IMG/VR virus record: IMGVR_UViG_646862327_000001
Source: a virus
Taxonomy: Duplodnaviria; Heunggongvirae; Uroviricota; Caudoviricetes
Direction: 5' to 3' (one strand)
DNA length: 47,020 nt
Shown here: in pieces, positions 4,211 to 47,020 of the stretch
How the letters are laid out: every line of letters starts with the position of its first letter
How positions within the stretch are numbered: the first letter of the stretch is position 1
Notes under the pieces: model-generated
Told to the model about the DNA's origin: nothing
Databases searched by the model: none
The model's input: the letters and a program-made list of their open reading frames with translations, nothing else
Made by a program: the position numbers and the translations under genes

Positions 4211-4215
4211 CCGTT

Positions 4216-5157: not shown

Positions 5158-5238
5158 TAATTTTGTGACTTGTATCGCATAGCGATAACTGAAGGGAGGA
5201 TGTGGTGGTTTTTCGAACGGTTTGTGTGATGAGGGGAC

Positions 5239-5265: not shown

Positions 5266-5269
5266 ATTC

Positions 5270-5647: not shown

Positions 5648-6686
5648 TTATCTTGCCTAACTCGATGATCTTTAAGAACTGCTCATTTGTGAGTTTAAAG
5701 TGACTCCATCGGAATGCACGCGAACCATTTAGCCCCACATGATCTATTAAAATAGCACGATTGGGTCTCTTTGGCAAAGACAGATTGTATGTGAATCTTA
5801 TAATGAAAGGGTATCGACGTTCTTTATAGATTTTTCTGAGTTCATCTTCAGAAAATACGCTAAAACGAATACAATAGTCTACAAAACTATCTTCGCTTAA
5901 AAATTCAGAAATATTTTTTACGCTCTCAACTACACATAATGTACTGGCTACAGAACGATAGCGAGCTGGCCCTTTTTTGTCTCCGGTTCTATAGATGACA
6001 ATGATATCTCCTCTTTTCATTCCCATCACAGAACGCATTCCACATATGTAAATTTTATGAATGCTGTTAGCATGGGATATATCTTTGACAATATCTGGTG
6101 ATTCATTTACAAGTTTTGAATCAGGGAATAGTCTAGTGTGATATTCGGGATAAATCGCCAGTAAATATTTGTTGGCCCTTGATGTCATTATTCGAGGGTA
6201 ATCTAATAAAATATCACCATAAGGCTCATGCAAAGACCTCGCATATACAAACTCTTTCCCGTTATGTGTTTCTTTTTCACCATGAATGTAAAATCCGTAC
6301 GTTTGGAAAAGTTTTATTAGATGGACGTGTTTGTCGAAAACAGTAACATAAATATCATCAGATTTTGATGAAAATGCATGGTCAAACGCTTTTTTTAGAA
6401 ATCGTTGTCCGCGAAGGGTGCCTTTAGATTCAAATTTGAATGTTCCTATCTTTAGATGACGTCCTGGTGGGAGCGCTGGATTAATGTCATTTGCATCATC
6501 ATTTTCTTTTAGATACATAAAACCTTCGATTTTATGCTTGTCATCATAGAGCACATAAGCTGATTCTCCTTCTCTGGCTTTTTTTTCTAACCAAAGAGGA
6601 AACTCTTTATAATCTTTTTTTAAAGAGTCAAAAAATGGGTCATTGTGATCAAAATCAGAGAATTTCTCATATTTTAAAGTATCCAT
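5625..6686 (-). CDS. Two-domain protein: GNAT-like acetyltransferase fold (N) fused to PUA-like ASCH/EVE-type domain (C), 353 aa
   Basis: Start moved to ATG 6684-6686 (GGAGA RBS). N-terminal ~155 aa looks GNAT-like by eye (...LKIGTFKFESKGTLRGQRFLKKAF...LFQTYGFY). C-terminal part repeats the ASCH-like pattern (KYLLAIYPEYHTRLF...GMKRGDIIVIYRTGD). Same strand as cI, in the rexA/rexB slot. Confidence 0.55.
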   Translation of the reverse strand: MDTLKYEKFSDFDHNDPFFDSLKKDYKEFPLWLEKKAREGESAYVLYDDKHKIEGFMYLKENDDANDINPALPPGRHLKIGTFKFESKGTLRGQRFLKKAFDHAFSSKSDDIYVTVFDKHVHLIKLFQTYGFYIHGEKETHNGKEFVYARSLHEPYGDILLDYPRIMTSRANKYLLAIYPEYHTRLFPDSKLVNESPDIVKDISHANSIHKIYICGMRSVMGMKRGDIIVIYRTGDKKGPARYRSVASTLCVVESVKNISEFLSEDSFVDYCIRFSVFSEDELRKIYKERRYPFIIRFTYNLSLPKRPNRAILIDHVGLNGSRAFRWSHFKLTNEQFLKIIELGKINESFIIH

Positions 6687-6766
6687 TAAGTTCTCCATTC
6701 TAAAATGAATAATTAAGTTGTTTTACTGAATGAGCACAATGCCCGGTTGATAATTTTTAATTGGTA

Positions 6767-10447: not shown

Positions 10448-10780
10448 ATGAACCCTTATATTTATCTTGGTGGTGCAATACTTGCAGAGGTCATTGGTAC
10501 AACCTTAATGAAGTTTTCAGAAGGTTTTACACGGTTATGGCCATCTGTTGGTACAATTATTTGTTATTGTGCATCATTCTGGTTATTAGCTCAGACGCTG
10601 GCTTATATACCTACAGGGATTGCTTATGCTATCTGGTCAGGAGTCGGTATTGTCCTGATTAGCTTACTATCATGGGGATTTTTCGGCCAACGGTTGGACC
10701 TGCCAGCCATTATAGGCATGATGTTGATTTGTGCCGGTGTGTTGGTTATTAATTTATTGTCACGAAGCACACCACATTAA
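10448..10780 (+). CDS. emrE: Small multidrug resistance efflux protein EmrE
   Basis: 110 aa from ATG 10448 (MNPYIYLGGAILAEVIGTTLMKFSEGFTRLWPSVGTIICYCASFWLLAQTLAYIPTGIAYAIWSGVGIV...), recognised as E. coli EmrE (a DLP12 prophage gene in K-12); the TTG-extended ORF start at 10394 was rejected. Confidence 0.95.
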   Translation: MNPYIYLGGAILAEVIGTTLMKFSEGFTRLWPSVGTIICYCASFWLLAQTLAYIPTGIAYAIWSGVGIVLISLLSWGFFGQRLDLPAIIGMMLICAGVLVINLLSRSTPH

Positions 10781-10797
10781 AAATAATTTATTTTTAA
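10775..10797. repeat. Direct repeat copy 1 (CATTAAAAATAATTTATTTTTAA) at emrE 3' end
   Basis: 21/23 identical to a second copy at 12848-12870; the pair brackets the serine-recombinase gene. Confidence 0.7.
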
Positions 10798-11035
10798 ACG
10801 ACTAAAATATGGAGGTTCGTATATTTGTATGGGCCTCGTTTTATGCTTTTTGTTAATGTCTTTAGTTTTTATTCATTCTTTTGATCTTTCAAGACCATGG
10901 TGTAAGAAAATTGCAATACGATTATTGTTGTATATTCAAGATAATGTGACCTTAATTGTCTTTTTAAATAAAAATTAAACAAAAATCATATCTCACCACT
11001 AAGGTTTATAAAAGCATACTTTAGCAGGTGTCACC

Positions 11036-12562
11036 ATGAAAAAAGCCATAGCATATATGCGATTTTCATCACCAGGTCAGATGTCTGGTGATTCATTAAA
11101 CCGCCAGAGAAGGCTTATTACTGAATGGCTAAAGGTAAATAGTGATTATTACCTTGATACCGTAACGTATGAAGATTTGGGGTTAAGCGCATTCAATGGA
11201 AAGCATGCACAATCAGGAGCTTTTTCGGAATTTTTAGATGCTATAGAACATGGTTACATATTGCCAGGGACTACATTGTTAGTTGAAAGTCTGGACAGAC
11301 TTTCAAGAGAAAAAGTCGGTGAAGCGATTGAGCGTCTGAAATTGATTTTGAATCACGGTATTGATGTTATAACTCTTTGCGATAATACAGTCTATAATAT
11401 AGACTCATTGAATGAGCCATATTCATTAATAAAAGCCATACTTATAGCACAAAGGGCAAATGAAGAAAGCGAGATAAAGTCAAGTCGGGTTAAATTATCA
11501 TGGAAGAAAAAACGGCAGGATGCACTGGAATCAGGCACGATTATGACGGCGTCTTGTCCGAGATGGCTCTCATTGGATGACAAAAGAACAGCTTTTATTC
11601 CAGACCCCGACAGGGTGAAAACGATTGAGCTAATTTTTAAACTCAGGATGGAAAGGCGATCATTGAATGCAATAGCTAAGTATTTAAATGATCATGCTGT
11701 AAAAAATTTTTCAGGAAAAGAAAGTGCATGGGGGCCTTCTGTAATTGAAAAATTATTAGCGAATAAAGCTCTGATAGGTATATGCGTACCTTCATATCGT
11801 GCAAGAGGGAAAGGGATAAGTGAAATCGCTGGCTATTATCCCAGAGTCATATCAGATGATTTGTTTTACGCTGTACAGGAAATTCGGTTGGCACCTTTTG
11901 GTATTAGCAATAGTAGCAAGAATCCTATGCTAATAAATCTACTTCGAACAGTTATGAAGTGTGAGGCTTGTGGTAATACCATGATTGTTCATGCGGTATC
12001 TGGACGTTTGCATGGCTATTATGTTTGTCCGATGAGAAGATTACATCGATGTGACAGGCCATCAATAAAAAGAGATTTGGTTGATTATAATATCATTAAT
12101 GAATTGCTTTTTAATTGTAGCAAAATTCAACCAGTTGAAAACAAGAAAGATGCTAATGAAACTTTAGAGTTAAAAATTATTGAGCTTCAGATGAAAATTA
12201 ATAATTTAATCGTTGCATTGTCTGTCGCGCCTGAAGTTACCGCTATAGCAGAGAAAATAAGACTATTAGATAAGGAATTACGAAGGGCTTCGGTATCATT
12301 AAAAACTTTGAAGAGTAAAGGGGTGAGTTCACTTGGTGATTTTCATGCTATTGATTTAACCAGTAAAAATGGGCGAGAGCTATGTCGTACACTTGCCTAT
12401 AAAATATTCGAAAAAATTATAATTAATACAGATAATAAAACCTGTGATATCTATTTTATGAATGGCATTGTTTTTAAACACTATCCTTTAATGAAAGTAA
12501 TATCCGCCCAGCAGGCGATAAGTACTCTTAAATATATGGTTGATGGTGAGGTTTATTTTTGA
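11036..12562 (+). CDS. ybcK: Large serine recombinase (YbcK-like, 508 aa)
   Basis: N-terminal resolvase/invertase catalytic motif (AIAYMRFSSPGQ...LLVESLDRLSR) followed by a long recombinase extension with Cys clusters; AT-rich gene after emrE as in DLP12. Confidence 0.85.
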   Translation: MKKAIAYMRFSSPGQMSGDSLNRQRRLITEWLKVNSDYYLDTVTYEDLGLSAFNGKHAQSGAFSEFLDAIEHGYILPGTTLLVESLDRLSREKVGEAIERLKLILNHGIDVITLCDNTVYNIDSLNEPYSLIKAILIAQRANEESEIKSSRVKLSWKKKRQDALESGTIMTASCPRWLSLDDKRTAFIPDPDRVKTIELIFKLRMERRSLNAIAKYLNDHAVKNFSGKESAWGPSVIEKLLANKALIGICVPSYRARGKGISEIAGYYPRVISDDLFYAVQEIRLAPFGISNSSKNPMLINLLRTVMKCEACGNTMIVHAVSGRLHGYYVCPMRRLHRCDRPSIKRDLVDYNIINELLFNCSKIQPVENKKDANETLELKIIELQMKINNLIVALSVAPEVTAIAEKIRLLDKELRRASVSLKTLKSKGVSSLGDFHAIDLTSKNGRELCRTLAYKIFEKIIINTDNKTCDIYFMNGIVFKHYPLMKVISAQQAISTLKYMVDGEVYF

Positions 12563-12847
12563 GTAATAATCACTTTTTCAACCGTGCTATGGTATGAAAG
12601 TAAAGTAACTAATATGATATTAACTATCTTGAACGAAGCGCCCTGAGCTATAGTTTTACTATAGGCACTGTCACTGGATGTTGGCATTCTTGCTCTAGTA
12701 GCTCAACAATACCCAATCACAAAACAATTCACTGATAACAAACTTTGTGCACGTGCTTGGTTATGGCGAACAGGTGATGTTAACCTCTTGCCAGAATGCC
12801 ACTCCACTTCATTAAGTATCTGAGCACCGAGAGGCTGGTCACGCCCC

Positions 12848-12870
12848 CATTAAAAATAATTTCTTTTGAA
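12848..12870. repeat. Direct repeat copy 2 (CATTAAAAATAATTTCTTTTGAA)
   Basis: Partner of 10775-10797; lies ~285 bp downstream of the ybcK stop. Confidence 0.7.
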
Positions 12871-12883
12871 TCGAGTGAAATAG

Positions 12884-12911
12884 GTTAGCCCGCATAAGTG
12901 CGGGCTGCTTT
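12884..12911 (+). terminator. Rho-independent terminator between convergent ybcK and esterase genes
   Basis: Hairpin AGCCCGCA-taag-TGCGGGCT followed by GCTTTTT on the plus strand; abuts the esterase stop codon. Confidence 0.6.
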
Positions 12912-13955
12912 TTACAGGTCAGCGTTTGTTTTTTGTTGTTGGGTAGCGGTTTTTATGGGGGTTCCCAGGTTTTTAGTAAACCACTCAACAACTCTGTTTA
13001 TAATAATTGGCTGATACCATGTATTATCGCCATGCTCGGCCCCTTCTACCAGCACGTACTCAGCGTTATCACCGTTCTTCTTCAACATCCTGAATAGTTT
13101 GGCGCTTTGCTCAGGTGAAACCAGAGTGTCTTTGCTACCATGCATAATAAGAAATGGGGGTTTTACTCCTTTCATATGTCCGATTGGACTGGCGTTTAGC
13201 GCTTTTTCTTTTGACGCTGTGATGGGGGCTCCCGCAAAATTTCTGAATGCAGGGCCATTGATCATTAAGGCTTCGGTTACGGCAGGAGAGCGATGAACCT
13301 CCTGCACTGATTCAGGGAACCCCTCGCCAATATTCAACAAGTCAGAAATCCCATAAAGTGTGGCAACTGCCTGAACATCTGAGGATTGCTGAAGAAAGTC
13401 ACCTTTATCAAAGGTTTTGTCACCATTTGTAGTTCCCATCATCTGGGCAAGCCATCCACCGGCAGAGTCACCCAGAACTCCGATTCTTTGAGGATCAATC
13501 CCATAATTGCTGGCATGCTCTCTCAGGTAACGTATTGCAGCTTTTCCATCCTCAACTGGTGCTGGAAATGTATCAGGAATTGTTCTGTATTCTACAGCGG
13601 CCACAACAAAACCAGCTTCTGCCAGAGCCATTCTCATTTCAATAAATTTGTCATGTTCAGAAGACATGAATCCGCCGCCGGGATAATAAATAATGGCTGG
13701 TTTTAAATCATTTGTTCGCGGGACAAGAACTGACATGTGAAGCTGTCTGACAGAACGAGTTCCTTTTATCTGGGAATAAACAACATCACCAATGAGATCG
13801 ACCTGGTTTCTGGTCGGTGAAACACTAATGATATCTGCACCCGGGGTGTAACCAGGAAGATTAGTCTGGACAGGTGTTGCACAACTCCCGACCGACATGG
13901 CCATTGACATACCATACAATAGTGTTGCAGATGATAATATCTTGTTAATTTTCAT
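12912..13955 (-). CDS. Secreted alpha/beta-hydrolase (HSL-type esterase/lipase), probable lipoprotein
   Basis: 347 aa; N-terminal signal ending in a lipobox-like SVGSC; YYPGGGF oxyanion-hole motif, GDSAGG nucleophile elbow, downstream Asp/His (HGSKDT, AEHGD). Confidence 0.8.
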   Translation of the reverse strand: MKINKILSSATLLYGMSMAMSVGSCATPVQTNLPGYTPGADIISVSPTRNQVDLIGDVVYSQIKGTRSVRQLHMSVLVPRTNDLKPAIIYYPGGGFMSSEHDKFIEMRMALAEAGFVVAAVEYRTIPDTFPAPVEDGKAAIRYLREHASNYGIDPQRIGVLGDSAGGWLAQMMGTTNGDKTFDKGDFLQQSSDVQAVATLYGISDLLNIGEGFPESVQEVHRSPAVTEALMINGPAFRNFAGAPITASKEKALNASPIGHMKGVKPPFLIMHGSKDTLVSPEQSAKLFRMLKKNGDNAEYVLVEGAEHGDNTWYQPIIINRVVEWFTKNLGTPIKTATQQQKTNADL

Positions 13956-16464: not shown

Positions 16465-17547
16465 TTAGAACTGATAAACCAGACCTACAGCGACGATGTC
16501 GTCGGTATCAATACCAGCTGTTTTGGTAAACTTACTATCGTCAATTAAGTTGATTTTGTAATCAACAAAAGTGGACATGTTTTTATTAAAGTAGTAAGTA
16601 GCACCGACATCGACATACTTGACTAAGTCTCGGTCACCATGAACACCAAGGTCTTTACCTTTTGACTGAAGGTAAGCAACAGATGGTCGCAGACCGAAGT
16701 CAAACTGATATTGTGCTACTGCTTCAAAGTTTTGTGCTTTGTTTGCAATATGGTTATTACCAAAAACGGTCATATTCTGAGTTTCAGAATATGTGGTAGC
16801 CAGATAGATATTGTTCGCATCATATTTCAGGCCTGCAGCCCATACTTCCGCATTTTTGCCGGAGGCATTGAATTTGCTCTTACCATAGGCGACCTGACCG
16901 TCAGTGCGATCTGATTTAGCATAGGTTGCACCCACGCCGAATCCTTCATACTCATAAGTAGTGGAGAAACCGAAACCATCACCATTGACTTCAGTTACGT
17001 CAGTGCGGTCATTTTTACCCTGATACTGAGCAGCAAAGTTCAGGCCATCGACCAGACCAAAGAAGTCGTTGTTACGATAAGTTGCAACACCAGTAGTGCG
17101 ACCAGTCATGAACACATCTGTTTGGGTCCAGGTATCACCACCGAATTCTGGCAGGACGTCAGTCCACGCACCGATGTCGTATGCTACACCGTAGTTACGG
17201 CCGTAATCGATTGAGCCGTAATCACCAAATTTCAGGCCTGCAAATGCAAGACGGGTTTTGTCTTTGGAAGAACCTTGAGATTCAGCACGGTTGCCTTTGA
17301 ATTCATATTCCCACTGACCGAAACCAGTCAGTTGATCGTTGATTTGGGTTTCACCTTTGAAGCCAAGACGGGCATAAGTAGTATCACCATCATCTGCATC
17401 ATTAGAGGAGAAGTAGTGCTTGGCATTAACTTTCCCGTATAGATCCAGCTTGTTACTGTCTTTATTATAAATTTCAGCTGCCTGAGCAGACATCGCCATC
17501 AGTACTGATGCAGCTACAGCAGAAATTGCCACTGTTAATTTTTTCAT
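16465..17547 (-). CDS. nmpC: Outer-membrane general porin (NmpC/OmpD-like, OmpC/F family), intact
   Basis: 360 aa with signal peptide ([23 protein letters not shown]), porin beta-barrel signature and C-terminal ...VAVGLVYQF; antisense to the late operon between Q and S as in DLP12. Confidence 0.95.
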
Positions 17548-35169: not shown

Positions 35170-35738
35170 AAACGGGGGCTGAAGCTATCCGGGCGCTGGC
35201 CACACAGCTCCCGGCGTTTCGTCAGAAACTGAATGACGGCTGGTATCAGGTACGGATTGCCGGGCGGGATGTCAGCACGTCCGGATTAACGGCGCAGTTA
35301 CATGAGACTCTGCCTGATGGCGCTGTGATTCATATTGTTCCCAGAGTCGCCGGGGCCAAGTCAGGTGGTGTATTCCAGATTGTCCTGGGAGCTGCCGCCA
35401 TTGCCGGATCATTCTTTACTGCCGGAGCCACCCTTGCAGCATGGGGGGCAGCCATTGGGGCCGGTGGTATGACCGGCATCCTGTTTTCTCTCGGTGCCAG
35501 TATGGTGCTCGGTGGTGTGGCGCAGATGCTCGCACCGAAAGCCAGGACGCCCACAGCGACCAGCACGGATAACGGTAAGCAGAACACCTATTTCTCTTCA
35601 CTGGATAACATGGTTGCCCAGGGCAATGTTTTGCCTGTTCTGTACGGTGAAATGCGCGTGGGGTCACGCGTGGTTTCTCAGGAGATCAGCACGGCAGACG
35701 AAGGGGACGGTGGTCAGGTTGTGGTGATTGGTCGCTGA
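35067..35738 (+). CDS. I: Tail assembly protein I
   Basis: 223 aa with Gly/Ala-rich hydrophobic segment; lambda gpI-like. Confidence 0.9.
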   Translation: MAATHTLPLASPGMARICLYGDLQRFGRRIDLRVKTGAEAIRALATQLPAFRQKLNDGWYQVRIAGRDVSTSGLTAQLHETLPDGAVIHIVPRVAGAKSGGVFQIVLGAAAIAGSFFTAGATLAAWGAAIGAGGMTGILFSLGASMVLGGVAQMLAPKARTPTATSTDNGKQNTYFSSLDNMVAQGNVLPVLYGEMRVGSRVVSQEISTADEGDGGQVVVIGR

Positions 35739-35798
35739 TGCAAAATGTTTTATGTGAAACCGCCTGCGGGCGGTTTTGTCGTTTATGGAGCGTGAGGA

Positions 35799-36152
35799 AT
35801 GGGTAAAGGCAGCAGTAAGGGGCATACCCCGCGCGAAGCGAAGGACAACCTGAAGTCCACGCAGTTGCTGAGTGTGATCGATGCCATCAGCGAAGGGCCG
35901 ATAGAAGGTCCGGTGGATGGATTAAAAAGCGTGCTGCTGAACAGTACACCGGTGCTGGACAGTGAGGGAAATACCAACATCTCCGGCGTCACGGTGGTGT
36001 TCCGGGCAGGTGAGCAGGAGCAGACACCGCCGGAGGGATTTGAATCCTCCGGTTCCGAGACGGTGCTGGGTACGGAAGTGAAATATGACACGCCGATCAC
36101 CCGCACCATTACGTCTGCAAACATCGACCGTCTGCGCTTTACCTTCGGTGTG
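35799..36152 (+). pseudogene. J: Tail tip/host-specificity protein J, 5' fragment (codons 1-118), interrupted by an IS element
   Basis: MGKGSSKGHTPREAKDNLKSTQLLSVIDAISEGPIEGPVDG... matches the lambda J N-terminus; reading frame is broken at 36152 by the IS and resumes in-frame at 38739. Confidence 0.9.
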
Positions 36153-36345
36153 TGCGTATTTTCATGAAAGGAGATCACTCAATAACTTCCATCGAGATCG
36201 GGTAATAACATTTGAACAGATCGCTGAATAACATCGATGGAGATCACTTTTGACTCATTTTGTTATTCAGTGATCTCCATCAATGTTATTGGAACTTCAC
36301 AGGTGTGTTGATCTGTATCTTTTGCCATTCCGGTAAAGGATACCT

Positions 36346-37887
36346 ATGCCAACAGTTCCAATTTCTATGAGAAAACTTAAAGAAATTCTTAGGCTTAAAT
36401 ACGGTGTTGGACTCAGCCATCGACAAATTGGTCGTAGTCTTGCAATCTCCCCTTCCGTTGTATCCAGATATGCTAATCGGGCGGCTCAACTTGGCATAAA
36501 GCAGTGGCCCTTACCTACAGGATGGGATGATACAAAACTAAAACATGCGTTCCTTCAGACCCAGGTTAAGATGAAGAAGCACTCTCTGCCTGACTGGGCT
36601 ACAGTACACCGGGAACTGCGTAATAAATGCGTGACGCTGCAGCTACTCTGGGAAGAATACTGTGAGCGTAATCCAGGCGGTTTTTACAGCTATAACCATT
36701 ACTGCCGGATGTACCGTGAATGGCTCAAAACCACTTCACCATCAATGCGTCAGGTACATAAAGCTGGCGAAAAACTTTTCGTTGATTACTGTGGACCTAC
36801 CGTTGGCGTTACCGACCCTGAGACCGGAGAAATAAGAACTGCTCAGGTCATCGTAGCTGTTCTCGGGGCATCAAGTTACACATGGGCAGAGGCCACCTGG
36901 TCTCAGCAGCTTGAAGACTGGGTGATGAGTCATGTTCGCTGCTTCCAGTGGTTGGGTGGCGTTCCTGAACTTGTTGTTCCGGACAATCTGAAAAGCGCCA
37001 CATCCAGGGCATGTAAGTATGATCCTGACGTTAACCCTACCTACCAGCAGATGCTTGAGCATTATAATGTCGCAGTTTTGCCTGCGCGGCCACGTAAACC
37101 GAAAGATAAAGCCAAAGCTGAAGTTGGCGTTCAGGTTGTTGAACGCTGGATCATGGCCCGAATCAGGCATGAGATCTTCTACAGCCTTGCATCGCTTAAT
37201 CAGCGCATTCGGGAGTTGCTGGAAAGACTGAATAACAAAATAATGCAGAAGTTGGGTTATTCACGTGCAGAACTCTTCATCCAGCTTGATAAACCCGCAC
37301 TGAAGCCTCTTCCTGAAGCCAGTTACAGTTACACCCTGGTGAAGAAAGTCAGAGTTCATGCCGATTACCACGTGGAAATCGACAAACATTACTACTCGGT
37401 TCCATGTTCGCTGTTAGGCCAGCAACTGGAAGCATGGATCTCCGGAGAACTGGTAAGACTCTTCAATCAGGGGCAGGAGGTTGCTGTGCACCCGCGCAAG
37501 CGTACTTATGGCTACAGTACCCGCAACGAGCACATGCCTGAAGCTCATCGACAGCATGCCACCTGGACGCCAGAGCGTCTTCTGGAATGGGCGGGGCACA
37601 TAGGCAGTGAAACTCATAGTTATGTGCTTCATATACTGAACTCTCGTCCACATCCGGAACAAAGCTATCGCTTCTGCCTTGGACTCCTGAACCTTCATAA
37701 AAAATACAGTAAAGCCAGACTTAATGCAGCATGTGCAAGAGCTCTGAAAACAAAGGTATGGCGTCTGTCAGGTATTAAATCGATCCTGGAAAAAGGTCTG
37801 GATAAACAACCTGTTCAGGATCCAAAACCAGATCTGTTATCCACGATGGAACACGAAAACGTACGCGGCAGTGAGTATTACCACTGA
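36346..37887 (+). CDS. istA: IS21-family transposase IstA (513 aa)
   Basis: N-terminal HTH (LSHRQIGRSLAISPSVVSRY) then DDE integrase-like core; followed by istB. Confidence 0.8.
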   Translation: MPTVPISMRKLKEILRLKYGVGLSHRQIGRSLAISPSVVSRYANRAAQLGIKQWPLPTGWDDTKLKHAFLQTQVKMKKHSLPDWATVHRELRNKCVTLQLLWEEYCERNPGGFYSYNHYCRMYREWLKTTSPSMRQVHKAGEKLFVDYCGPTVGVTDPETGEIRTAQVIVAVLGASSYTWAEATWSQQLEDWVMSHVRCFQWLGGVPELVVPDNLKSATSRACKYDPDVNPTYQQMLEHYNVAVLPARPRKPKDKAKAEVGVQVVERWIMARIRHEIFYSLASLNQRIRELLERLNNKIMQKLGYSRAELFIQLDKPALKPLPEASYSYTLVKKVRVHADYHVEIDKHYYSVPCSLLGQQLEAWISGELVRLFNQGQEVAVHPRKRTYGYSTRNEHMPEAHRQHATWTPERLLEWAGHIGSETHSYVLHILNSRPHPEQSYRFCLGLLNLHKKYSKARLNAACARALKTKVWRLSGIKSILEKGLDKQPVQDPKPDLLSTMEHENVRGSEYYH

Positions 37888-37898
37888 TACGGGATCCA

Positions 37899-38648
37899 AT
37901 GATGAATCATCTTTACGAACAACTGACCGCACTTAAACTCACCGGCTTCCGTGATGCGCTTAAAAAGCAACTTGCTCAACCGGGCACATACCAGGAGCTG
38001 GGCTTCGAAGAACGCCTGTCATTACTGACAGCAGAAGAACTAACCTGCCGTGAAAACAGGAAGGCAGAGCGTCTGATCAAACATGCACGGTTCAGACTTA
38101 ATGCTGAGTTATCAAAGCTGGATTATCGTAACAATAGAGGGCTGGACAGGGCCCTCATCCGTTCACTCAGTCAGGGAAACTGGTTAACCCTGAAACAAAA
38201 TATTTTACTGACCGGGGCCACCGGCAGCGGTAAAACGTTCCTGGCATGTGCACTTGGTCATAATGCCTGCCGACAGGGATACAAGGTCTACTATTATCGC
38301 CTTAAAGCGCTGATGGAACAGTGCTATCAGGGGCATGCTGATGGAAGATACAGCAAACTTTTGACCAGGCTGAATAATAGCGATCTGCTGCTTCTGGATG
38401 ACTGGGGGCTGGAACCTCTCTCATCAGAACAGCGTAGCGACCTGCTGGAAATAGTGGATCTGATGTACCAACGAGGCTCAATCATCGTAGTGAGCCAGTT
38501 GCCGGTGGAAAACTGGTACAAAATGATCGGAGACTCCACACATGCGGATGCCATCCTAGATCGACTGGTTCATGGCAGTATCAAGATCGAACTTAAAGGA
38601 GAATCAATGCGGAAAATACAATCTCCGTTGACCGAAGGAGATCAGTGA
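37899..38648 (+). CDS. istB: IS21-family ATP-binding helper IstB
   Basis: AAA+/DnaC-like with Walker A GATGSGKT and Walker B LLLLDDWG. Confidence 0.85.
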   Translation: MMNHLYEQLTALKLTGFRDALKKQLAQPGTYQELGFEERLSLLTAEELTCRENRKAERLIKHARFRLNAELSKLDYRNNRGLDRALIRSLSQGNWLTLKQNILLTGATGSGKTFLACALGHNACRQGYKVYYYRLKALMEQCYQGHADGRYSKLLTRLNNSDLLLLDDWGLEPLSSEQRSDLLEIVDLMYQRGSIIVVSQLPVENWYKMIGDSTHADAILDRLVHGSIKIELKGESMRKIQSPLTEGDQ

Positions 38649-38738
38649 AGGTAATTTAAAAACGGTTCTGTGAAAGTGACACGAACCGATCTCCATCGAT
38701 GTTACTCACCGATCTCCTTCACGGTAATACGCAGTGTG

Positions 38739-41700
38739 CAGGCACTGGTGGAAACCACTTCAAAGGGGGACCGTAATCCGTCGGAAGTCCGCCTGCTGGT
38801 TCAGATACAGCGTAACGGTGGCTGGGTGACGGAAAAAGACATAACCATTAAGGGCAAAACCACCTCGCAGTATCTGGCCTCGGTGGTGGTGGATAACCTG
38901 CCTCCGCGCCCGTTCAATATCCGGATGCGCAGGATGACACCGGACAGCACCACAGACCAGCTGCAGAACAAAACGCTCTGGTCGTCATACACCGAAATCA
39001 TCGATGTGAAACAGTGCTACCCGAACACGGCACTGGTCGGCGTGCAGGTGGACTCGGAACAGTTCGGCAGCCAGCAGGTGAGCCGTAATTATCATCTTCG
39101 CGGGCGCATTCTGCAGGTGCCGTCGAACTATAACCCGCAGACGCGGCAATACATCGGTATCTGGGACGGGACGTTTAAACCGGCATACAGCAACAACATG
39201 GCCTGGTGTCTGTGGGATATGCTGACCCACCCGCGCTACGGCATGGGTAAACGTCTTGGTGCGGCAGATGTGGATAAATGGGCGCTGTATGTCATCGGCC
39301 AGAATTGCGACCAGTCGGTGCCGGACGGTTTTGGCGGCACGGAGCCGCGCATCACCTGTAACGCTTACCTGACCACACAGCGCAAGGCGTGGGATGTGCT
39401 CAGTGATTTCTGCTCGGCGATGCGCTGTATGCCGGTATGGAACGGGCAGACGCTGACGTTCGTGCAGGACCGGCCATCGGATAAGGTGTGGACCTATAAC
39501 CGCAGTAATGTGGTGATGCCGGAAGATGGCGCGCCGTTCCGCTACAGCTTCAGCGCCCTGAAGGACCGTCATAATGCCGTTGAGGTGAACTGGATTGACC
39601 CGGATAACGGCTGGGAGACGGCGACAGAGCTTGTGGAGGACACGCGGGCCATTGCCCGTTACGGTCGTAATGTCACGAAGATGGACGCCTTTGGCTGTAC
39701 CAGCCGGGGGCAGGCACACCGAGCCGGGCTGTGGCTGATTAAAACGGAGCTGCTGGAAACGCAGACCGTGGACTTTAGCGTGGGTGCTGAAGGGCTTCGC
39801 CATGTACCGGGCGATGTCATTGAAATCTGCGATGATGACTATGCCGGTATCAGCACCGGCGGGCGCGTGCTGGCGGTGAACAGCCAGACCCGGACGCTGA
39901 CGCTCGACCGTGAAATCACGCTGCCATCCTCCGGCACCACGCTGATAAGCCTGGTTGACGGGCAGGGTAATCCGGTGAGCGTGGAGGTTCAGTCCGTCAC
40001 CGACGGCGTGAAGGTGAAAGTGAGCCGGGTTCCTGACGGCGTTGCCGAATACAGCGTGTGGGGGCTGAAGCTGCCGACGCTGCGCCAGCGCCTGTTCCGC
40101 TGTGTGAGTATCCGTGAGAATGACGACGGTACGTATGCCATCACCGCCGTGCAGCATGTACCGGCAAAAGAGGCCATCGTGGATAACGGGGCGCACTTTG
40201 ACGGCGACCAGAGCGGAACGGTAAACGGTGTCACGCCGCCAGCAGTACAGCACCTGACCGCAGAAGTCACCGCAGACAGCGGGGAATACCAGGTGCTGGC
40301 GCGCTGGGATACGCCGAAGGTGGTGAAGGGGGTGAGCTTTATGCTTCGCCTGACCGTGGCAGCGGATGACGGCAGTGAGCGGCTGGTCAGCACGGCCCGG
40401 ACGACGGAAACCACATACCGCTTCACGCAACTGGCGCTGGGAAACTACAGGCTGACAGTCCGGGCGGCAAATGCCTGGGGGCAGCAGGGCGATCCGGCAT
40501 CGGTATCGTTCCGTATTGCCGCACCGGCAGCGCCGTCGCGGATTGAGCTGACGCCGGGCTATTTTCAGATCACCGCCACGCCGCATCTTGCCGTTTATGA
40601 TCCGACGGTACAGTTTGAGTTCTGGTTCTCGGAAAAGCGGGTTGCGGATATCAGGCAGGTTGAAACTACAGCCCGCTATCTTGGCACGGCGCTGTACTGG
40701 ATAGCTGCCAGTATCAATATCAAGCCGGGCCATGATTATTATTTTTATATCCGCAGTGTGAATACTGTTGGCAAATCGGCATTCGTGGAGGCTGTCGGTC
40801 GGGCGAGCGATGATGCGGAAGGTTACCTGGATTTTTTCAAAGGCCAGATAACCGAATCCCATCTCGGCAAGGAGCTGCTGGAAAAAGTCGAGCTGACGGA
40901 GGATAACGCCAGCAAACTGGAGGAGTTCTCGAAAGAGTGGAAAGACGCCAACGATAAATGGAATGCCATGTGGGGTGTCAAAATTGAGCAGACCGAAGAC
41001 GGCAAACATTATGTCGCGGGGCTTGGCCTCAGCATGGAGGATACAGAGGAAGGCAAACTGAGCCAGTTCCTGGTTGCCGCTAACCGTATCGCGTTTATTG
41101 ACCCGGCAAACGGGAATGAAACGCCGATGTTTGTGGCGCAGGGCAACCAGATATTCATGAACGAAGTGTTCCTGAAGTATCTGACGGCTCCCACCATTAC
41201 CAGCGGCGGCAATCCGCCGGTATTTTCCCTGACACCGGACGGGCGGCTGACGGCGAAAAATGCCGATATCAGCGGTAACGTGAATGCGAACTCCGGGACG
41301 CTCAATAATGTCACGATTAACCAGAACTGTCGGATTATGGGAAAACTGTCTGCCAACCAGATTGAAGGTGATATTGTCAAAACGGTGGGAAAAGCCTTTC
41401 CGAGAAATGGCAGTTATGCCAGCGGTACAATAACGGTCACTGTGTACGATGACCAGGCTTTTGACCGTCAGATAGTAATCCCACCCGTTCTGTTTCGCGG
41501 TGGTAAGCATGAAAACTTCAACAGCAACAACCAACAGTCATACTGGTATTCAACCTGTAAGCTGCAGGTACTGAAGAACGGACAGGAAATCTTTCAGCAA
41601 CCCGCGACGGATGTCAGCAGGGTATTTTCATCAGTCATTGATATGCCTGCCGGACACGGCCATGTCACCCTGACTTTCAATGTTTCTTCATATGGTGCTA

Positions 41701-41783
41701 ATAACTGGACGCCAACGACCAGTATCAGCGACCTTCTTGTTGTTGTGATGAAGAAATCTACAGCCGGTATCAGTATCAGTTGA
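38739..41783 (+). pseudogene. J: Tail tip/host-specificity protein J, 3' fragment (central fibronectin-like region + C-terminal receptor-binding region)
   Basis: Resumes exactly at ...[29 protein letters not shown]... collinear with lambda J; the ORF-track N-terminal extension (38670-38738) is IS-derived sequence. Confidence 0.9.
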
Positions 41784-41841: not shown

Positions 41842-43770
41842 ATGGCAGTACAGATTTCAGGCGTGCTGAAAGACGGTGCAGGAAAACCGATACAGAACTG
41901 CACCATTCAGCTCAAAGCAAAACGTAACAGCACCACGGTTGTGGTGAACACGGTGGCCTCAGAAAATCCGGATGAAGCCGGACGTTACAGCATGGATGTC
42001 GAGTATGGCCAGTACAGCGTTATCCTGCTGGTTGAAGGTTTTCCGCCTTCACATGCCGGGACCATCACCGTGTATGAGGATTCTAAGCCGGGGACGCTGA
42101 ATGATTTTCTGGGGGCCATGACGGAAGAGGATGTCATGCCGGAGGCATTGCGTCGTTTTGAGGTAATGGTGGAGGATGTGGCACGCAACGCTGAAGCCGC
42201 CTCTCAGAGCGCAGCGGCAGCAAAGAAATCAGAAACAGCAGCGGCATCGTCCAGGAACGCGGCGAAAACATCAGAGACGAATGCAGGTAACAGCGCGAAA
42301 GCGGCAGCTTCTTCAAAAACAGCCGCACAAAACGCAGCAACAGCGGCAGAACGTTCAGAGACAAATGCCCGTGCGTCAGAAGAAGCCTCCGCAGACAGTG
42401 AAGAGGCTTCCCGCCGTAATGCAGAGTCAGCCGCTGAAAATGCCGGAGTCGCCACCACAAAAGCGCGGGAGGCTGCAGCAGACGCAACAAAGGCCGGGCA
42501 GAAAAAGGATGAGGCTCTGTCGGCAGCGACACGAGCTGAAAAGGCGGCAGACCGCGCAGAAGCCGCAGCGGAAGTGACTGCAGAGCCCTATGCGAATATA
42601 GTGCCGCCGCTGCCTGATGTGTGGATACCGTTTAACGATTCACTGGATATGATTGCGGGTTTTTCTCCGGGCTATAAAAAAATAGCTATTGGTGACGATG
42701 TGGTTCAGGTCGCCAGTGATAAACAGGTTAATTTCAGTCGCGCATCAACGGCAACATATATCAACAAATCTGGCGAACTGAAAACGGCGGAAATTAATGA
42801 GCCGCGATTTGAGTGTGATGGCCTGCTTATTGAGGGACAAAGAACGAACTACATGCTCAATTCGGAAAGTCCAGCCAGCTGGGGGAAGTCATCAAACATG
42901 GATGTGCCCGAAACTGGGACGGATAGTTTTGGTTTTACTTATGGAAAGTTTGTCTGCAACGATTCTCTGGTTGGGCAAACTTCGGCTATTAATATGGCAT
43001 CAATTGCTGCAACAAAGTCAGTTGATGTCTCAGGCGATAACAAGTACGTGACAACCTCATGCCGTTTTAAAACAGAACGACAGGTAAGGTTACGTATACG
43101 GTTTGATAAGTATGATGGTAGTGCAACAACTTTTCTTGGCGATGCGTACATTGATACGCAAACGCTTGAAATTAATATGACAGGTGGTGCTGCCGGCAGA
43201 ATTACGGCACGAGTCAGGAAGGATAAGACCACGGGCTGGATTTTTGCAGAGGCAACGATTCAGGCAATTGATGGTGAGTTAAAAATAGGCTCTCAGATAC
43301 AGTATTCTCCTGAGCAGGGTGGGGCAACAGTATCTGGTGACTATATTTATCTTGCCACCCCACAAGTAGAGAATGGGCCGTGTGTATCATCATTTATTAT
43401 TTCAGGAGGCAGCGCAACGACAAGAGCCAGTGATTTGGTTAGTATCCCCACCAGAAATAATCTTTATAAGTTACCATTTACTTTTTTACTTGAGATTCAT
43501 AAAAACTGGGATATTGCACCAAACGCCGCACCCCGCGTGTGGGATATAGCAGCCAATACCGGGCAATCAGCAATTGCAGCAATCAACAGAGGTAGTGGTA
43601 AGTTATATATGAGTCTGTCAAACCCTTCAGGCTCGTATGTTAATAGCGCAGCGACAGATGTATTTGCAGAGAAAACCACATTTGGATGTATTGCAAAAGC
43701 TGATGGTCACTTTCATGTGGTGACAAATGGTAAAGCGGTTAATGAAGTTTATTGTGAATATAATGGGTAA
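41842..43770 (+). pseudogene. stf: Side tail fibre protein Stf, 3'-truncated by IS66-family insertion
   Basis: ATG 41842 after GGAG; N-terminus MAVQISGVLKDGAGKPIQNCTIQLKAKRNSTTVVVNTVASENPDEAGRYSMDVEYGQYSVIL... as lambda Stf; stop codon TAA (43768-43770) is created at the IS left end; original last 44 codons lie at 46307-46439. Confidence 0.8.
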
Positions 43771-43851
43771 GCGTAAACTGACCGCCGTATGTAGCCATCA
43801 GACGAGAATTGGTAACTTAGACGCCCATCTGATATAGACGGACATCTAAGT

Positions 43852-44277
43852 ATGGAATTACAGGACTGGCGAAAAGAACCTCGTAAAAACTATTCGAATG
43901 AATTCAAACTTCGTATGGTGGAACTGGCATCACAACCTGGAGCTTGTGTTGCACAGATTGCACGTGAAAATGGCGTCAATGATAATGTTATTTTCAAATG
44001 GCTCAGGCTCTGGCAGAACGAAGGGCGTGTTTCGCGGCGTCTTCCGGTAACGACCTCTTCTGACACTGGCGTTGAATTATTACCTGTAGAAATAACGCCG
44101 GATGAGCAGAAAGAACCTGTGGCGGCCATTGCGCCGTCTTTATCCACTTCCACTCAGACCAGAGTCAGTGCCAGTTCCTGCAAGGTGGAATTCCGTCACG
44201 GTAACATGACGCTGGAAAATCCATCGCCAGAGCTGCTCACAGTGTTGATCCGTGAACTGACCGGGAGGGGAAGATGA
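43852..44277 (+). CDS. IS66-family accessory protein (orf1/TnpA)
   Basis: 141 aa with N-terminal HTH (ACVAQIARENGVNDNVIFKWL); first ORF of the IS66 triad. Confidence 0.8.
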   Translation: MELQDWRKEPRKNYSNEFKLRMVELASQPGACVAQIARENGVNDNVIFKWLRLWQNEGRVSRRLPVTTSSDTGVELLPVEITPDEQKEPVAAIAPSLSTSTQTRVSASSCKVEFRHGNMTLENPSPELLTVLIRELTGRGR

Positions 44278-44624
44278 TCTCACTCCCATCAGGTACCCGT
44301 ATCTGGCTCGTTGCCGGCGTTACCGATATGCGTAAATCCTTCAACGGACTGGGAGAACAGGTACAACATGTGCTGAATGATAATCCCTTCTCCGGTCACC
44401 TGTTTATCTTCCGTGGCCGACGGGGTGACACCGTCAAAATTCTTTGGGCTGATGCTGATGGTCTGTGCCTGTTCACCAAACGCCTGGAGGAAGGCCAGTT
44501 TATCTGGCCTGCGGTACGTGACGGCAAGGTATCCATTACCCGCTCGCAACTGGCAATGCTCCTCGATAAGCTGGACTGGCGTCAGCCAAAAACATCCAGC
44601 CGTAACTCACTGACAATGTTGTAA
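44274..44624 (+). CDS. IS66-family accessory protein (orf2/TnpB)
   Basis: 116 aa, 4-bp overlap with orf1; conserved IS66 orf2 pattern (...RKSFNGLGEQVQHVL...GHLFIFRGRRGDTVKILW...). Confidence 0.8.
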   Translation: MISLPSGTRIWLVAGVTDMRKSFNGLGEQVQHVLNDNPFSGHLFIFRGRRGDTVKILWADADGLCLFTKRLEEGQFIWPAVRDGKVSITRSQLAMLLDKLDWRQPKTSSRNSLTML

Positions 44625-44654
44625 AAAACTCCTGACCGCATTATAAAAACGGTC

Positions 44655-46268
44655 ATGAGTCAGAAATACCTCATTCGCATCGCAGAGCTGGAAAGGTTGC
44701 TCTCTGAGCAGGCTGAAGCCCTCCGTCAGAAAGACCAGCAACTGAGTCTGGTTGAAGAGACGGAAGCCTTCCTGCGCTCTGCACTGACACGTGCCGAAGA
44801 AAAGATCGAAGAAGATGAACGGGAAATAGAACATCTGCGGGCTCAGATAGAAAAACTGCGCCGGATGCTGTTCGGTACCCGTTCTGAAAAACTGCGTCGT
44901 GAAGTTGAACTGGCTGAGGCTCTGCTGAAACAACGTGAACAGGACAGCGATCGTTACAGTGGGCGGGAAGACGATCCTCAGGTTCCCCGCCAGTTGCGAC
45001 AGTCGCGCCATCGTCGTCCGTTACCGGCACACCTTCCCCGTGAAATACACCGCCTGGAGCCAGAAGAAAGCTGTTGCCCGGAGTGTGGCGGTGAGCTGGA
45101 TTATCTGGGGGAAGTCAGCGCTGAACAGCTGGAACTGGTGAGCAGTGCCCTGAAAGTGATCCGCACAGAACGGGTAAAAAAAGCCTGTACAAAATGTGAC
45201 TGTATTGTTGAAGCACCGGCGCCGTCCCGCCCGATAGAGCGTGGTATCGCGGGCCCCGGATTACTTGCCCGCGTGTTAACGGGAAAATACTGCGAACATC
45301 TGCCACTGTATCGTCAGAGTGAAATCTTTGCCCGCCAGGGTGTCGAACTGAGCCGGGCCTTACTCTCCAACTGGGTTGACGCGTGCTGCCAGTTAATGAC
45401 ACCGGTGAATGATGCCCTGTACCGTTATGTAATGAATACCCGCAAGGTTCACACTGATGACACACCGGTAAAGGTACTGGCACCGGGTCAGAAAAAGGCG
45501 AAAACAGGGCGTATCTGGACGTATGTCCGGGATGATCGCAATGTGGGTTCGTCATCTCCTCCAGCGGTCTGGTTCGCGTACTCGCCGAACCGGCAGGGGA
45601 AACACCCGGAGCAACACCTCCGCCCCTTCCGGGGTATCCTGCAGGCGGATGCGTTCACAGGTTACGACAGGTTGTTCAGTGCAGAACGTGAAGGTGGTGC
45701 ACTGACAGAAGTTGCGTGCTGGGCCCATGCCCGGCGAAAAATCCACGATGTATACATCAGCAGCAAAAGTGCGACGGCAGAAGAAGCCCTGAAGCGAATC
45801 AGTGAACTGTACGCCATCGAGGATGAAATACGGGGATTACCGGAGTCAGAGCGTCTTGCCGTCAGGCAGCAGCGAAGCAAAGTGTTACTGACGTCGCTGC
45901 ATGAATGGATGGTGGAGAAGAATGGTACGCTGTCGAAAAAATCCAGACTGGGCGAAGCGTTCAGCTATGTACTGAATCAGTGGGATGCCCTCTGTTATTA
46001 CAGTGATGACGGTCTGGCGGAGGCGGATAATAATGCTGCGGAAAGAGCGCTTCGTGCAGTCTGTCTCGGAAAGAAAAACTTTATGTTCTTTGGCAGCGAT
46101 CACGGCGGCGAGCGTGGAGCACTGTTGTACGGGCTGATCGGCACCTGCCGTCTGAACGGTATCGATCCGGAAGCGTATCTGCGCCATATCCTGAGCGTAC
46201 TGCCGGAATGGCCTTCCAACCGAGTTGACGAACTCCTGCCATGGAACGTAGTACTCACCAATAAATAA
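44655..46268 (+). CDS. IS66-family transposase (orf3/TnpC, 537 aa)
   Basis: N-terminal coiled-coil/leucine-zipper, CxxC zinc-finger (CCPECGGE...CTKCDC), DDE-type core. Confidence 0.85.
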   Translation: MSQKYLIRIAELERLLSEQAEALRQKDQQLSLVEETEAFLRSALTRAEEKIEEDEREIEHLRAQIEKLRRMLFGTRSEKLRREVELAEALLKQREQDSDRYSGREDDPQVPRQLRQSRHRRPLPAHLPREIHRLEPEESCCPECGGELDYLGEVSAEQLELVSSALKVIRTERVKKACTKCDCIVEAPAPSRPIERGIAGPGLLARVLTGKYCEHLPLYRQSEIFARQGVELSRALLSNWVDACCQLMTPVNDALYRYVMNTRKVHTDDTPVKVLAPGQKKAKTGRIWTYVRDDRNVGSSSPPAVWFAYSPNRQGKHPEQHLRPFRGILQADAFTGYDRLFSAEREGGALTEVACWAHARRKIHDVYISSKSATAEEALKRISELYAIEDEIRGLPESERLAVRQQRSKVLLTSLHEWMVEKNGTLSKKSRLGEAFSYVLNQWDALCYYSDDGLAEADNNAAERALRAVCLGKKNFMFFGSDHGGERGALLYGLIGTCRLNGIDPEAYLRHILSVLPEWPSNRVDELLPWNVVLTNK

Positions 46269-46306
46269 GCGTCAATACGGTGCTCCGTTGACGCTTACTA
46301 TAATGG

Positions 46307-46439
46307 CGTGACCGCTGATAAAAATATCCGATTTGGAGGGCAGACGAATACTGGAGAACGACATCTGTTTGGCCATATTCGCAATTTCCGCATATGGCAT
46401 AAAGAATTAAATGACAGGCAATTAAAAGAGGTCGTATGA
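46307..46439 (+). other. stf: Displaced 3' end of stf (last 44 codons, LamG-like C-terminal motif)
   Basis: Joining 43766 to 46307 restores the frame: ...EYNG|VTADKNIRFGGQTNTGERHLFGHIRNFRIWHKELNDRQLKEVV*, ending at TGA 46437-46439, which overlaps the next ATG. Confidence 0.7.
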
Positions 46440-46714
46440 AAGATTTAACTTTGAAGTTTCATGACAAACTGCAGTTTAAGGCCTTCCTGTCATCTCTTGG
46501 CTGGGCGGAAGATGAAGACCTCCAGAATAAACTGTTAGTTGATGAAATTGGTTTCACCTACACAGAAACAGGGGTAACAGAAGAGGGAGAACCTGTCTGT
46601 ATCCGGAATGATGGTTATTTTGTCAACATTCGCATTCTTGATGACTTGTTTGATGTTTCTGTATTCTCTGATTATGTCGTGGAGCTGGAAACACCGCTTC
46701 GGGAATGGAGCTGA
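46436..46714 (+). CDS. Hypothetical acidic protein (92 aa) translationally coupled to the original stf 3' end
   Basis: ATG overlaps the reconstructed stf stop (ATGA); position expected for a tail-fibre assembly/chaperone gene but shorter than lambda Tfa and not recognised. Confidence 0.5.
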   Translation: MKDLTLKFHDKLQFKAFLSSLGWAEDEDLQNKLLVDEIGFTYTETGVTEEGEPVCIRNDGYFVNIRILDDLFDVSVFSDYVVELETPLREWS

Positions 46715-46726
46715 AAGGAGGAAATA

Positions 46727-47020
46727 ATGGATATAAGCCCCTTACTTCATGCACTTTGTGCTGTGGCTGCGCAGATACTGGTTGGTCTTTTTACCGGAAA
46801 CTGGGCTTACGGAGCGATAGCCGGTTGTACGTTCTTCATTGCGCGTGAACATACCCAGGCAGAATATCGCTGGATTGAAATGTTCGGGCATGGCAAGCGA
46901 ATGAATATGCCGTGGTGGGGCGGTTTTGATCCGCGTGCTTGGGATGTGGCAAGCCTGATGGATTTTGCTGTGCCGGTGGTGGCGTGTCTGCTGGTCTGGC
47001 TGTTGGTTAATCGTGGGTGA
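46727..47020 (+). CDS. Hypothetical membrane protein (at least 97 aa; runs to window end without a stop)
   Basis: RBS AGGAGG upstream of ATG 46727; two hydrophobic segments (LLHALCAVAAQILVGLF..., DFAVPVVACLLVWLLV). Confidence 0.4.
   Translation: MDISPLLHALCAVAAQILVGLFTGNWAYGAIAGCTFFIAREHTQAEYRWIEMFGHGKRMNMPWWGGFDPRAWDVASLMDFAVPVVACLLVWLLVNRG

What the first reader, a model, noticed from the sequence alone, without database searches (positions are those of the whole stretch)
35799..41783. IS21-family insertion splits the J tail-tip gene with a 5-bp duplication
J is interrupted after codon 118 by a 2581-bp IS21-family element (istA/istB) flanked by GTGTG duplications; the frame resumes exactly collinear with lambda J. 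Together with the IS66 hit in stf, both adsorption determinants are independently inactivated, while the head, packaging and lysis genes look intact. This pattern suggests the prophage is a grounded element whose virions, if made, would lack functional fibres. The recombination, regulatory and cargo functions appear retained.
Basis: partly seen in the sequence, partly recalled or inferred. Interest (0 to 1): 0.45.

Follow-up and report, generated by a model that had tools for sequence, protein, structure and literature searches.

The report
ISEc12 insertion splits prophage J gene
A common E. coli jumping gene (ISEc12) has landed in the essential tail-tip gene J of an otherwise intact lambda-like prophage, which almost certainly stops it making infectious particles; this is a real but ordinary case of prophage decay.

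Summary
A 2581-bp IS21-family element (window 36153-38733) has TG...CA ends, istA and istB, and a 5-bp duplication GTGTG. It sits exactly after codon 118 of J. Removing it and one repeat copy restores a 1132-aa protein that aligns without gaps to lambda J.

The element is ISEc12, a named IS found in 1908 of 5426 complete E. coli genomes.

The window is E. coli SE15 (AP009378.1, ST131 clade A). Apart from this IS and one synonymous SNP, it is identical to the plaque-forming phage Lambda_4C10 (LR595861, Bievrevirus). A second, independent draft assembly has the same left junction, so this is not a misassembly. No complete E. coli genome in the collection carries this junction. 128 records match the empty-site sequence (IS and one repeat removed) at 99% or more.

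The interpretation needs two corrections:
- **stf::IS66 (ISEc23) is not disabling.** It is ancestral and is present in phages that form plaques.
- **The predicted phenotype is different.** J starts tail assembly, so I expect DNA-filled heads with no tails, not virions lacking fibres.

J loss alone grounds the prophage. Lysis and replication genes are intact, so induction should still kill the cell. This is a known kind of event and of low interest.

The parts
35799..36152 (+). J' 5' fragment: codons 1-118 of the tail-tip gene J. The ORF runs on into the IS to a stop at 36165-36167, adding CVFS (122 aa in all).
36148..36152 (.). Left copy of the 5-bp target-site duplication GTGTG
36153..38733 (+). 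ISEc12 (IS21 family), 2581 bp, TG...CA ends, same orientation as the late operon
   Evidence: It is 2581/2581 identical to a copy in E. coli DA33135.
36346..37887 (+). istA, a 513-aa DDE transposase
   Evidence: rve, Mu-transpos_C_2. (NF033546, 310.5 bits against a cut-off of 160).
37899..38648 (+). istB, a 249-aa AAA+ helper ATPase
   Evidence: IstB_IS21. (NF038214, 270 bits against a cut-off of 200).
38677..38733 (+). Right terminal inverted repeat, containing two direct repeats whose starts are 23 bp apart (38677 and 38700)
   Evidence: family D1. The 23-bp spacing matches IS21 TIR repeats described in PMC10122671.
38734..38738 (.). Right copy of the 5-bp target-site duplication GTGTG
38739..41783 (+). 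'J 3' fragment: codons 119-1132 plus the stop. Gene callers extend it to a GTG at 38670 inside the IS, giving 1037 aa.
41842..43766 (+). Side-tail-fibre gene stf, truncated about 44 codons before its end by ISEc23
43767..46298 (+). ISEc23 (IS66 family), 2532 bp, carrying tnpA, tnpB and the transposase gene. The 8-bp duplication TATAATGG lies at 43759-43766 and 46299-46306.
46307..46439 (+). Displaced 3' end of stf, the last ~44 codons

Best explanation
A copy of ISEc12 that was already in the host lineage transposed into the prophage's J gene by ordinary IS21-type transposition. IstA makes cuts staggered by 5 bp in the target, and IstB supplies the target DNA. The event happened recently, within a small branch of E. 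coli ST131 clade A that includes strain SE15.

The prophage is a Lambda_4C10-type (Bievrevirus) phage integrated at icd. It already carried ISEc23 in stf and was still infectious in that state.

The new insertion cuts J between residues 118 and 119, inside the FNIII-A domain that is nested in the hub domain. That leaves a 122-aa stub and a promoter-distal fragment with no convincing translation start. J is the trimeric hub and central fibre on which tail assembly begins, so induction should still give replication, DNA packaging into heads and lysis, but no tails and no plaques.

Shown here: the anatomy, the identity of the IS, the ancestry and the empty site. Inferred: the timing, the donor copy and the tailless phenotype.
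For: - **Boundaries and restored ORF:** IS limits, the 5-bp duplication and the rebuilt 1132-aa ORF; gapless alignment to lambda J.
- **IS identity:** IstA and IstB are IS21-family equivalogs. The IS is 100% identical to annotated ISEc12 copies.
- **Possible donor:** a 2581/2581 identical copy lies in DA33135, a genome that carries the same prophage with intact J.
- **Typical duplication:** three other ISEc12 copies also have exact 5-bp duplications, as reported for IS21 (PMC10122671).
- **Ancestry:** the window equals Lambda_4C10 apart from the IS and one synonymous SNP.
- **Ancestor is infectious:** bv_4C10 forms plaques.
- **Rarity:** the junction is absent from 5426 complete genomes, from the GTDB species representatives and from JGI metagenomes. 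128 records match the empty site at 99% or more.
- **Source and independent support:** the junction is present in SE15 (AP009378.1) and in an independent draft, BFTM01000040.1, which differs by 2 SNPs.
- **Role of J:** J initiates tail assembly (PMC3224144). FNIII-A spans residues 72-215 and is nested in the hub (PMC10721106). Pfam FNIII-A_GpJ is split at profile position 35|36.
Against: No experiment on SE15 is available, so the phenotype is inferred from lambda genetics.

An in-frame GTG at 38670, 22 nt after the istB stop, could in principle allow weak re-initiation and give J lacking residues 1-118. I saw no Shine-Dalgarno sequence by eye and the scan found no outward promoter, but expression was not excluded.

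Rescue by recombination with, or complementation by, another lambdoid J in the same cell cannot be excluded. Genomes that carry this J segment have a median of 2 copies of it.
Confidence: 0.87

Rival explanations
1. The junctions are an assembly artefact: an IS copy was wrongly placed in J when repeats were resolved.
For: IS elements are classic sources of misjoins. No genome in the complete-genome collection shows this junction.
Against: A misjoin would not create a perfect 5-bp duplication and an exactly restorable 1132-aa ORF. The left junction is also present in an independent draft assembly (GCA_005388705.1). That assembly differs by 2 SNPs over 10.5 kb and its contig stops 117 nt into the IS, which is how short-read assemblies normally break at a real IS. 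In all, 4 contigs carry the junction-specific 122-aa product.
Confidence: 0.02
2. The insertion was selected as domestication. Grounding the prophage would fix its cargo in the lineage: sitABCD, a porin, an SMR pump and the PDC-M11 candidate defence genes.
For: The cargo genes are intact. The allele is inherited by more than one isolate. ISEc12 also disrupts a tape-measure gene in another prophage.
Against: Losing J does not protect the host cell. Repressor, replication and lysis genes are identical to those of an inducible phage, so induction should still kill the cell. The allele is confined to a few assemblies, whereas 127 genomes hold the right-hand 8.3-kb stretch (J from codon 119 to the window end, including stf::ISEc23) nearly whole, and all 25 listed are 100% identical with a full-length gpJ annotated. 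Neutral mutational decay explains the data equally well.
Confidence: 0.07
3. The prophage is still mobile as a helper-dependent element. Its filled heads would join tails made by a co-resident lambdoid prophage, or Red recombination with another J gene would regenerate a viable phage.
For: Lambda heads and tails assemble separately and join afterwards (PMC3224144). The exo, bet and gam genes are intact. Genomes that carry this J segment have a median of 2 copies of it.
Against: I could not show that SE15 has another lambdoid prophage; it has a small 4.72-Mb genome. With the IS the genome would be about 51.76 kb, roughly 106.7% of lambda. That is at or above lambda's upper packaging limit of about 105% (my own knowledge of Feiss et al. 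1977; I could not find a citable source in the library).
Confidence: 0.04

Closest known systems
ISEc12 (IS21 family), as annotated by PGAP in E. coli genomes
   Same: 100% identical over all 2581 bp to many annotated copies. It has the same istA/istB pair, TG...CA ends and 5-bp duplications.
   Different: Only the insertion site differs. This site in J was not found in 5426 complete genomes.
Escherichia phage Lambda_4C10 (LR595861, Bievrevirus) and its near-identical relatives 4A7, 1W and 3W
   Same: About 44.4 kb of the window matches with one synonymous mismatch, including the stf::ISEc23 insertion.
   Different: Those phages have an intact 1132-aa J, and bv_4C10 and the 4A7 phage were titrated as plaques. 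The window has J::ISEc12.
Lambda J-defective mutants
   Same: They lose the tail-tip hub and central fibre protein that starts tail assembly (PMC3224144). The expected result is heads without tails.
   Different: Here the lesion is an IS insertion, not a point mutation. Reversion would need precise excision or recombination.
Lambda PaPa stf frameshift compared with Ur-lambda
   Same: The side fibre gene is broken while the phage stays fully plaque-forming (PMC12617516). This parallels stf::ISEc23 in Lambda_4C10.
   Different: Here the lesion is an IS66-family insertion that removes about 44 C-terminal residues, not a frameshift.
ISEc12 in the tape-measure gene of a P2-like prophage of E. coli AR_0081
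   Same: The same IS, a 5-bp duplication (CTGGT), and a disrupted prophage tail gene.
   Different: A different prophage type and a different gene.

Membership tests
IS21 family / ISEc12 | Two consecutive genes: istA (DDE transposase with an N-terminal HTH) followed by istB (AAA+ helper ATPase) | tested here: met
   NF033546 at 310.5 bits (cut-off 160). NF038214 at 270 bits (cut-off 200). Pfam rve, Mu-transpos_C_2 and IstB_IS21.
IS21 family / ISEc12 | Terminal inverted repeats ending 5'-TG...CA-3' | tested here: met
   TGCGTATT... and ...AATACGCA. The first 8 nt of the two ends are identical and 13 of the first 17 match. The boundaries are confirmed by the identical copy in DA33135, which has different flanks.
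IS21 family / ISEc12 | Several subterminal direct repeats (L1/L2, R1/R2), about 23 bp apart | tested here: met
   Right end: repeats at 38677 and 38700, with starts 23 bp apart. Left end: GGAGATCACT-type repeats at 36163 and 36232, plus an inverted copy at 36269. The 23-bp spacing is given in PMC10122671.
IS21 family / ISEc12 | 5-bp target-site duplication | tested here: met
   GTGTG on both sides. Three other copies have exact 5-bp repeats: CTGGT, CGGGT, CGGGT. The DA33135 copy has TGCTC, or 6 bp (GTGCTC) if the preceding G is counted.
IS21 family / ISEc12 | Near-identity to copies named ISEc12 | tested here: met
   100% over 2581 bp to PGAP-annotated 'IS21-like element ISEc12 family' copies.
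IS21 family / ISEc12 | Transposition activity of this copy | not testable with these tools
   Both ORFs and both ends are intact and identical to widespread copies, which fits activity but does not prove it.
Lambda gpJ tail-tip / central fibre protein | Full-length collinear similarity to lambda J, with its set of domains | tested here: met
   The rebuilt protein aligns 1-1131 to 8iyk_J at 2314 bits. Pfam FNIII-A_GpJ, Phage-tail_3, Ig_J, Ig_J_second, Phage_Tail_Tip and Ig_GpJ_C.
Lambda gpJ tail-tip / central fibre protein | Gene position after H-M-L-K-I in the tail operon | tested here: met
   Gene order in the matching phage and genome records and in the SE15 locus.
Lambda gpJ tail-tip / central fibre protein | One uninterrupted reading frame, meaning a functional gene | tested here: not met
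   It is split into a 122-aa ORF and a 1014-codon remainder by 2586 bp.
IS66 family / ISEc23 | Three genes (tnpA, tnpB, transposase), an 8-bp duplication and GTAAGCGT inverted repeats | tested here: met
   NF047595, NF033819 and NF033517 are all above their cut-offs. TATAATGG is duplicated and the ends read GTAAGCGT. PGAP names it ISEc23.
Lambda_4C10-type phage (Bievrevirus) | Genome-wide nucleotide identity and the same gene order | tested here: met
   Three collinear blocks cover the whole window outside the IS, with 1 mismatch.
Lambda_4C10-type phage (Bievrevirus) | Production of plaque-forming particles | not testable with these tools
   This is reported for bv_4C10 itself. I predict it is lost here.

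The most novel reading that the evidence does not exclude
The J::ISEc12 prophage of SE15 still packages its roughly 51.8-kb genome into heads. It might then behave as a helper-dependent element, spreading its sitABCD, porin and candidate defence cargo only when a co-resident or superinfecting lambdoid phage supplies tails or a recombining J gene. That would be a naturally occurring intermediate between a phage and a satellite.
Probability: 0.06. Interest if true: 0.35.

Novelty: already known. Interest (0 to 1): 0.1.

Why it matters
It matters little beyond correct annotation. The two 'host specificity protein' ORFs in the E. coli SE15 genome are halves of one J pseudogene. This prophage should be scored as defective even though prophage-prediction tools would probably call it intact.

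It is a clean, datable example of the first step of prophage decay. There is one IS hit on a background identical to a phage that is active in the laboratory. It could therefore serve as a natural control when asking which single lesions ground a prophage.

It also shows that an IS in a tail-fibre gene need not be disabling: stf::ISEc23 is carried by plaque-forming phages.

Tried and rejected
1. **Misassembly.** Rejected because of the exact duplication, the restorable ORF and an independent assembly with the same junction.
2. **Exact 40-nt junction scans.** The GTDB species representatives and the JGI metagenome contigs both gave 0 hits. A look-up by the junction-specific 122-aa product then found the source.
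3. **Expression of the downstream J fragment.** The promoter and terminator scan of 35600-39000 found nothing facing out of the IS right end. By eye there is no Shine-Dalgarno sequence before the in-frame GTG at 38670. I treat a functional J lacking residues 1-118 as unlikely, but it was not excluded.
4. **Both fibres knocked out.** Rejected for stf on the evidence of plaque-forming phages carrying the same stf::ISEc23.
5. **Target-site preference.** BLAST alignments of some ISEc12 left ends ran 14-20 nt into the J flank. Inspecting five copies showed only a loose C/T-rich...GGT-like resemblance, which is too few sites to call a preference.
6. **Citable source for lambda's upper packaging limit.** The one paper found did not state it. 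That point rests on my own knowledge.
7. **Published description of this insertion in SE15.** I found none in the EC958/SE15 comparison or in the H-NS paper.
Full report
**Anatomy.** Reading window 35700-39000 shows that the J start codon at 35799 is followed by 354 nt of J. The sequence TGCGTATTTTCATGAAAGGAGATC... then begins at 36153. The element ends ...CACGGTAATACGCA at 38733, so it is 2581 bp with TG...CA termini. The first 8 nt of the two ends are identical as inverted repeats, and 13 of the first 17 match. GTGTG lies immediately outside both ends, at 36148-36152 and 38734-38738.

Inside the element are two + strand ORFs: 36346-37887 (513 aa) and 37899-38648 (249 aa). They score as an IS21-family transposase (NF033546, 310.5 bits, cut-off 160) and as the IstB helper ATPase (NF038214, 270 bits, cut-off 200). 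Pfam finds rve, Mu-transpos_C_2 and IstB_IS21.

The ends carry the repeated GGAGATC-type motifs expected of IS21 terminal repeats. Two direct repeats at the right end have starts exactly 23 bp apart. That is the spacing described for IS21 (PMC10122671).

**Restoring J.** Deleting the IS and one GTGTG copy gives a 3399-nt ORF of 1132 aa. It aligns over residues 1-1131 with lambda J (PDB 8iyk chain J) in one gapless stretch of 2314 bits, and the sequence is identical across the junction. The Pfam FNIII-A_GpJ profile is cut between positions 35 and 36.

**What the IS is.** The 2581 bp are 100% identical to copies that PGAP annotates as 'IS21-like element ISEc12 family'. The element occurs in 1908 of 5426 complete E. 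coli genomes, with a median of 3 places per genome that has any.

Four other copies that I inspected have these flanking repeats:
- CTGGT
- CGGGT
- CGGGT
- TGCTC, or 6 bp (GTGCTC) if the preceding G is counted

One of these copies splits the tape-measure gene of a P2-like prophage.

**What the prophage is.** Outside the IS, the window is collinear with phage Lambda_4C10 (LR595861, genus Bievrevirus) in three blocks, with a single mismatch. That mismatch is a synonymous Leu codon in the large terminase gene. The same tail region, including the three 'mobile element' genes in stf, is in phages 4A7, 1W and 3W.

bv_4C10 is induced from its lysogen and titrated as plaques on E. coli C, at about 5.5e6 PFU/ml spontaneously (bioRxiv 10.64898/2026.05.26.727859). 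The head, packaging, lysis, recombination and regulatory genes here are therefore intact by identity to a working phage.

In genomes with the intact version, the prophage sits at icd and carries sitABCD just beyond the right end of the window.

**The stf insertion.** Comparison with phage 21 places an IS66-family element at 43767-46298 (2532 bp). It has an 8-bp duplication TATAATGG and GTAAGCGT ends. PGAP names it ISEc23, and its three genes pass the IS66 models. It removes about 44 of roughly 685 Stf residues.

The plaque-forming phages above carry this same insertion, and lambda's side fibres do not affect plaque number (PMC12617516). This hit is therefore older and tolerated, not a second disabling blow.

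**How rare is J::ISEc12, and is it real?**
- A 400-nt query across the left junction found no record covering it among 5426 complete genomes.
- The rebuilt empty site matches 128 records at 99% or more, and all 30 listed are 100% identical.
- 127 genomes hold the right-hand 8.3-kb stretch (J from codon 119 to the window end, including stf::ISEc23) nearly whole. All 25 listed are 100% identical and have a full-length gpJ annotated.
- Exact-match scans of the GTDB representatives and of the JGI metagenomes gave nothing.
- Looking up the junction-specific 122-aa product found it on four contigs.
- One of those contigs is E. coli SE15, AP009378.1. Its positions 1167015-1187383 match window 25799-46167 with 0 mismatches. 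AP009378.1 is named as SE15 in PMC4720273, and SE15 belongs to ST131 clade A (PMC4134206).
- Another is the draft contig BFTM01000040.1. It differs by 2 SNPs and ends 117 nt into the IS.

The insertion is therefore genuine and is inherited within a small lineage. DA33135, which carries the intact prophage, holds a 2581/2581 identical ISEc12 copy elsewhere in its chromosome. A donor within the host genome is therefore plausible.

**Consequence (inferred).** Lambda tail assembly starts with J (PMC3224144). In the lambda tail structure, FNIII-A spans residues 72-215 and is nested in the HDII-insertion hub domain. Together with HDII and the HDII-insertion domain, it contacts gpI (PMC10721106). A break after residue 118 separates the first hub strands from the rest of the protein.

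The upstream ORF ends after four IS-encoded residues. The downstream fragment has only a GTG at 38670 with no visible ribosome-binding site, and the scan found no outward promoter.

I therefore expect induction to give replication, filled heads and lysis, but no tails and no plaques. Lysis genes are intact, so the lesion should not protect the host cell. That argues for neutral decay over selected domestication.

The IS also raises the genome from 49,169 bp to about 51,755 bp. The 49,169 figure is LR595861 without its 38-nt adapter tail. The new length is about 106.7% of lambda, which by my own knowledge is at or above lambda's upper packaging limit.

**Verdict.** The IS, the phage, the source genome and the phenomenon are all already catalogued. 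Interest is low.

Noticed in passing
window 5270-6698 (- strand): Two adjacent ORFs lie beside the repressor gene, roughly where lambda has rexAB. One is 357 aa with no Pfam hit; the other is 125 aa with an ASCH domain. They match the PADLOC candidate defence system PDC-M11A/B at E = 2e-133 and 7e-52.
   Followed up: partly
window 10448-13955: A block of accessory genes sits in the nin region: an SMR/EmrE-like pump (10448-10780), a 508-aa large serine recombinase (11036-12562; Resolvase, Recombinase, Zn_ribbon_recom) and a BD-FAE alpha/beta hydrolase (12912-13955, - strand). A second recombinase inside a phage that already has a tyrosine integrase may mark a nested mobile element.
   Followed up: no
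window 16465-17547 (- strand): A 360-aa OmpC/NmpC-like porin gene (Porin_1, E = 3e-151) lies between the Q antiterminator and the lysis genes. It is a likely lysogenic-conversion gene.
   Followed up: no
L002 (LR595861.1) 49170-49207: The GenBank record of phage Lambda_4C10 ends with 38 nt that include CTGTCTCTTATACACATCT, which I recognise as the Nextera adapter sequence. The true genome length is 49,169 bp.
   Followed up: yes
L005 (E. coli DA33135, NZ_CP029576.1) 3180-5820: This ISEc12 copy is inserted inside the right-end sequence of an ISEc23 element. Its flanks reproduce the ISEc23 right terminus seen at window 46255-46298. It is an IS-in-IS nesting next to the CP4-44-like cbtA/yeeW region.
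   Followed up: partly
L009 (E. coli AR_0081, NZ_CP027534.1) 2080-6217: ISEc12 splits the tape-measure gene of a P2-like prophage, with a CTGGT duplication. In strains S9 and NR2550 the IS abuts a 'phage virion morphogenesis protein' gene. Prophage structural genes are repeatedly hit by this IS.
   Followed up: partly
window 21872: This is the only base substitution relative to phage Lambda_4C10 in about 44.4 kb: A instead of G, CTA instead of CTG, Leu353 of the large terminase, synonymous.
   Followed up: yes
window 46436-47020: Two small ORFs (92 and 97 aa) without Pfam hits follow stf, in place of lambda's tfa. They are conserved in phage 21, where the second is annotated as a membrane protein. 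No tail-fibre assembly chaperone homologue was found in this position.
   Followed up: no
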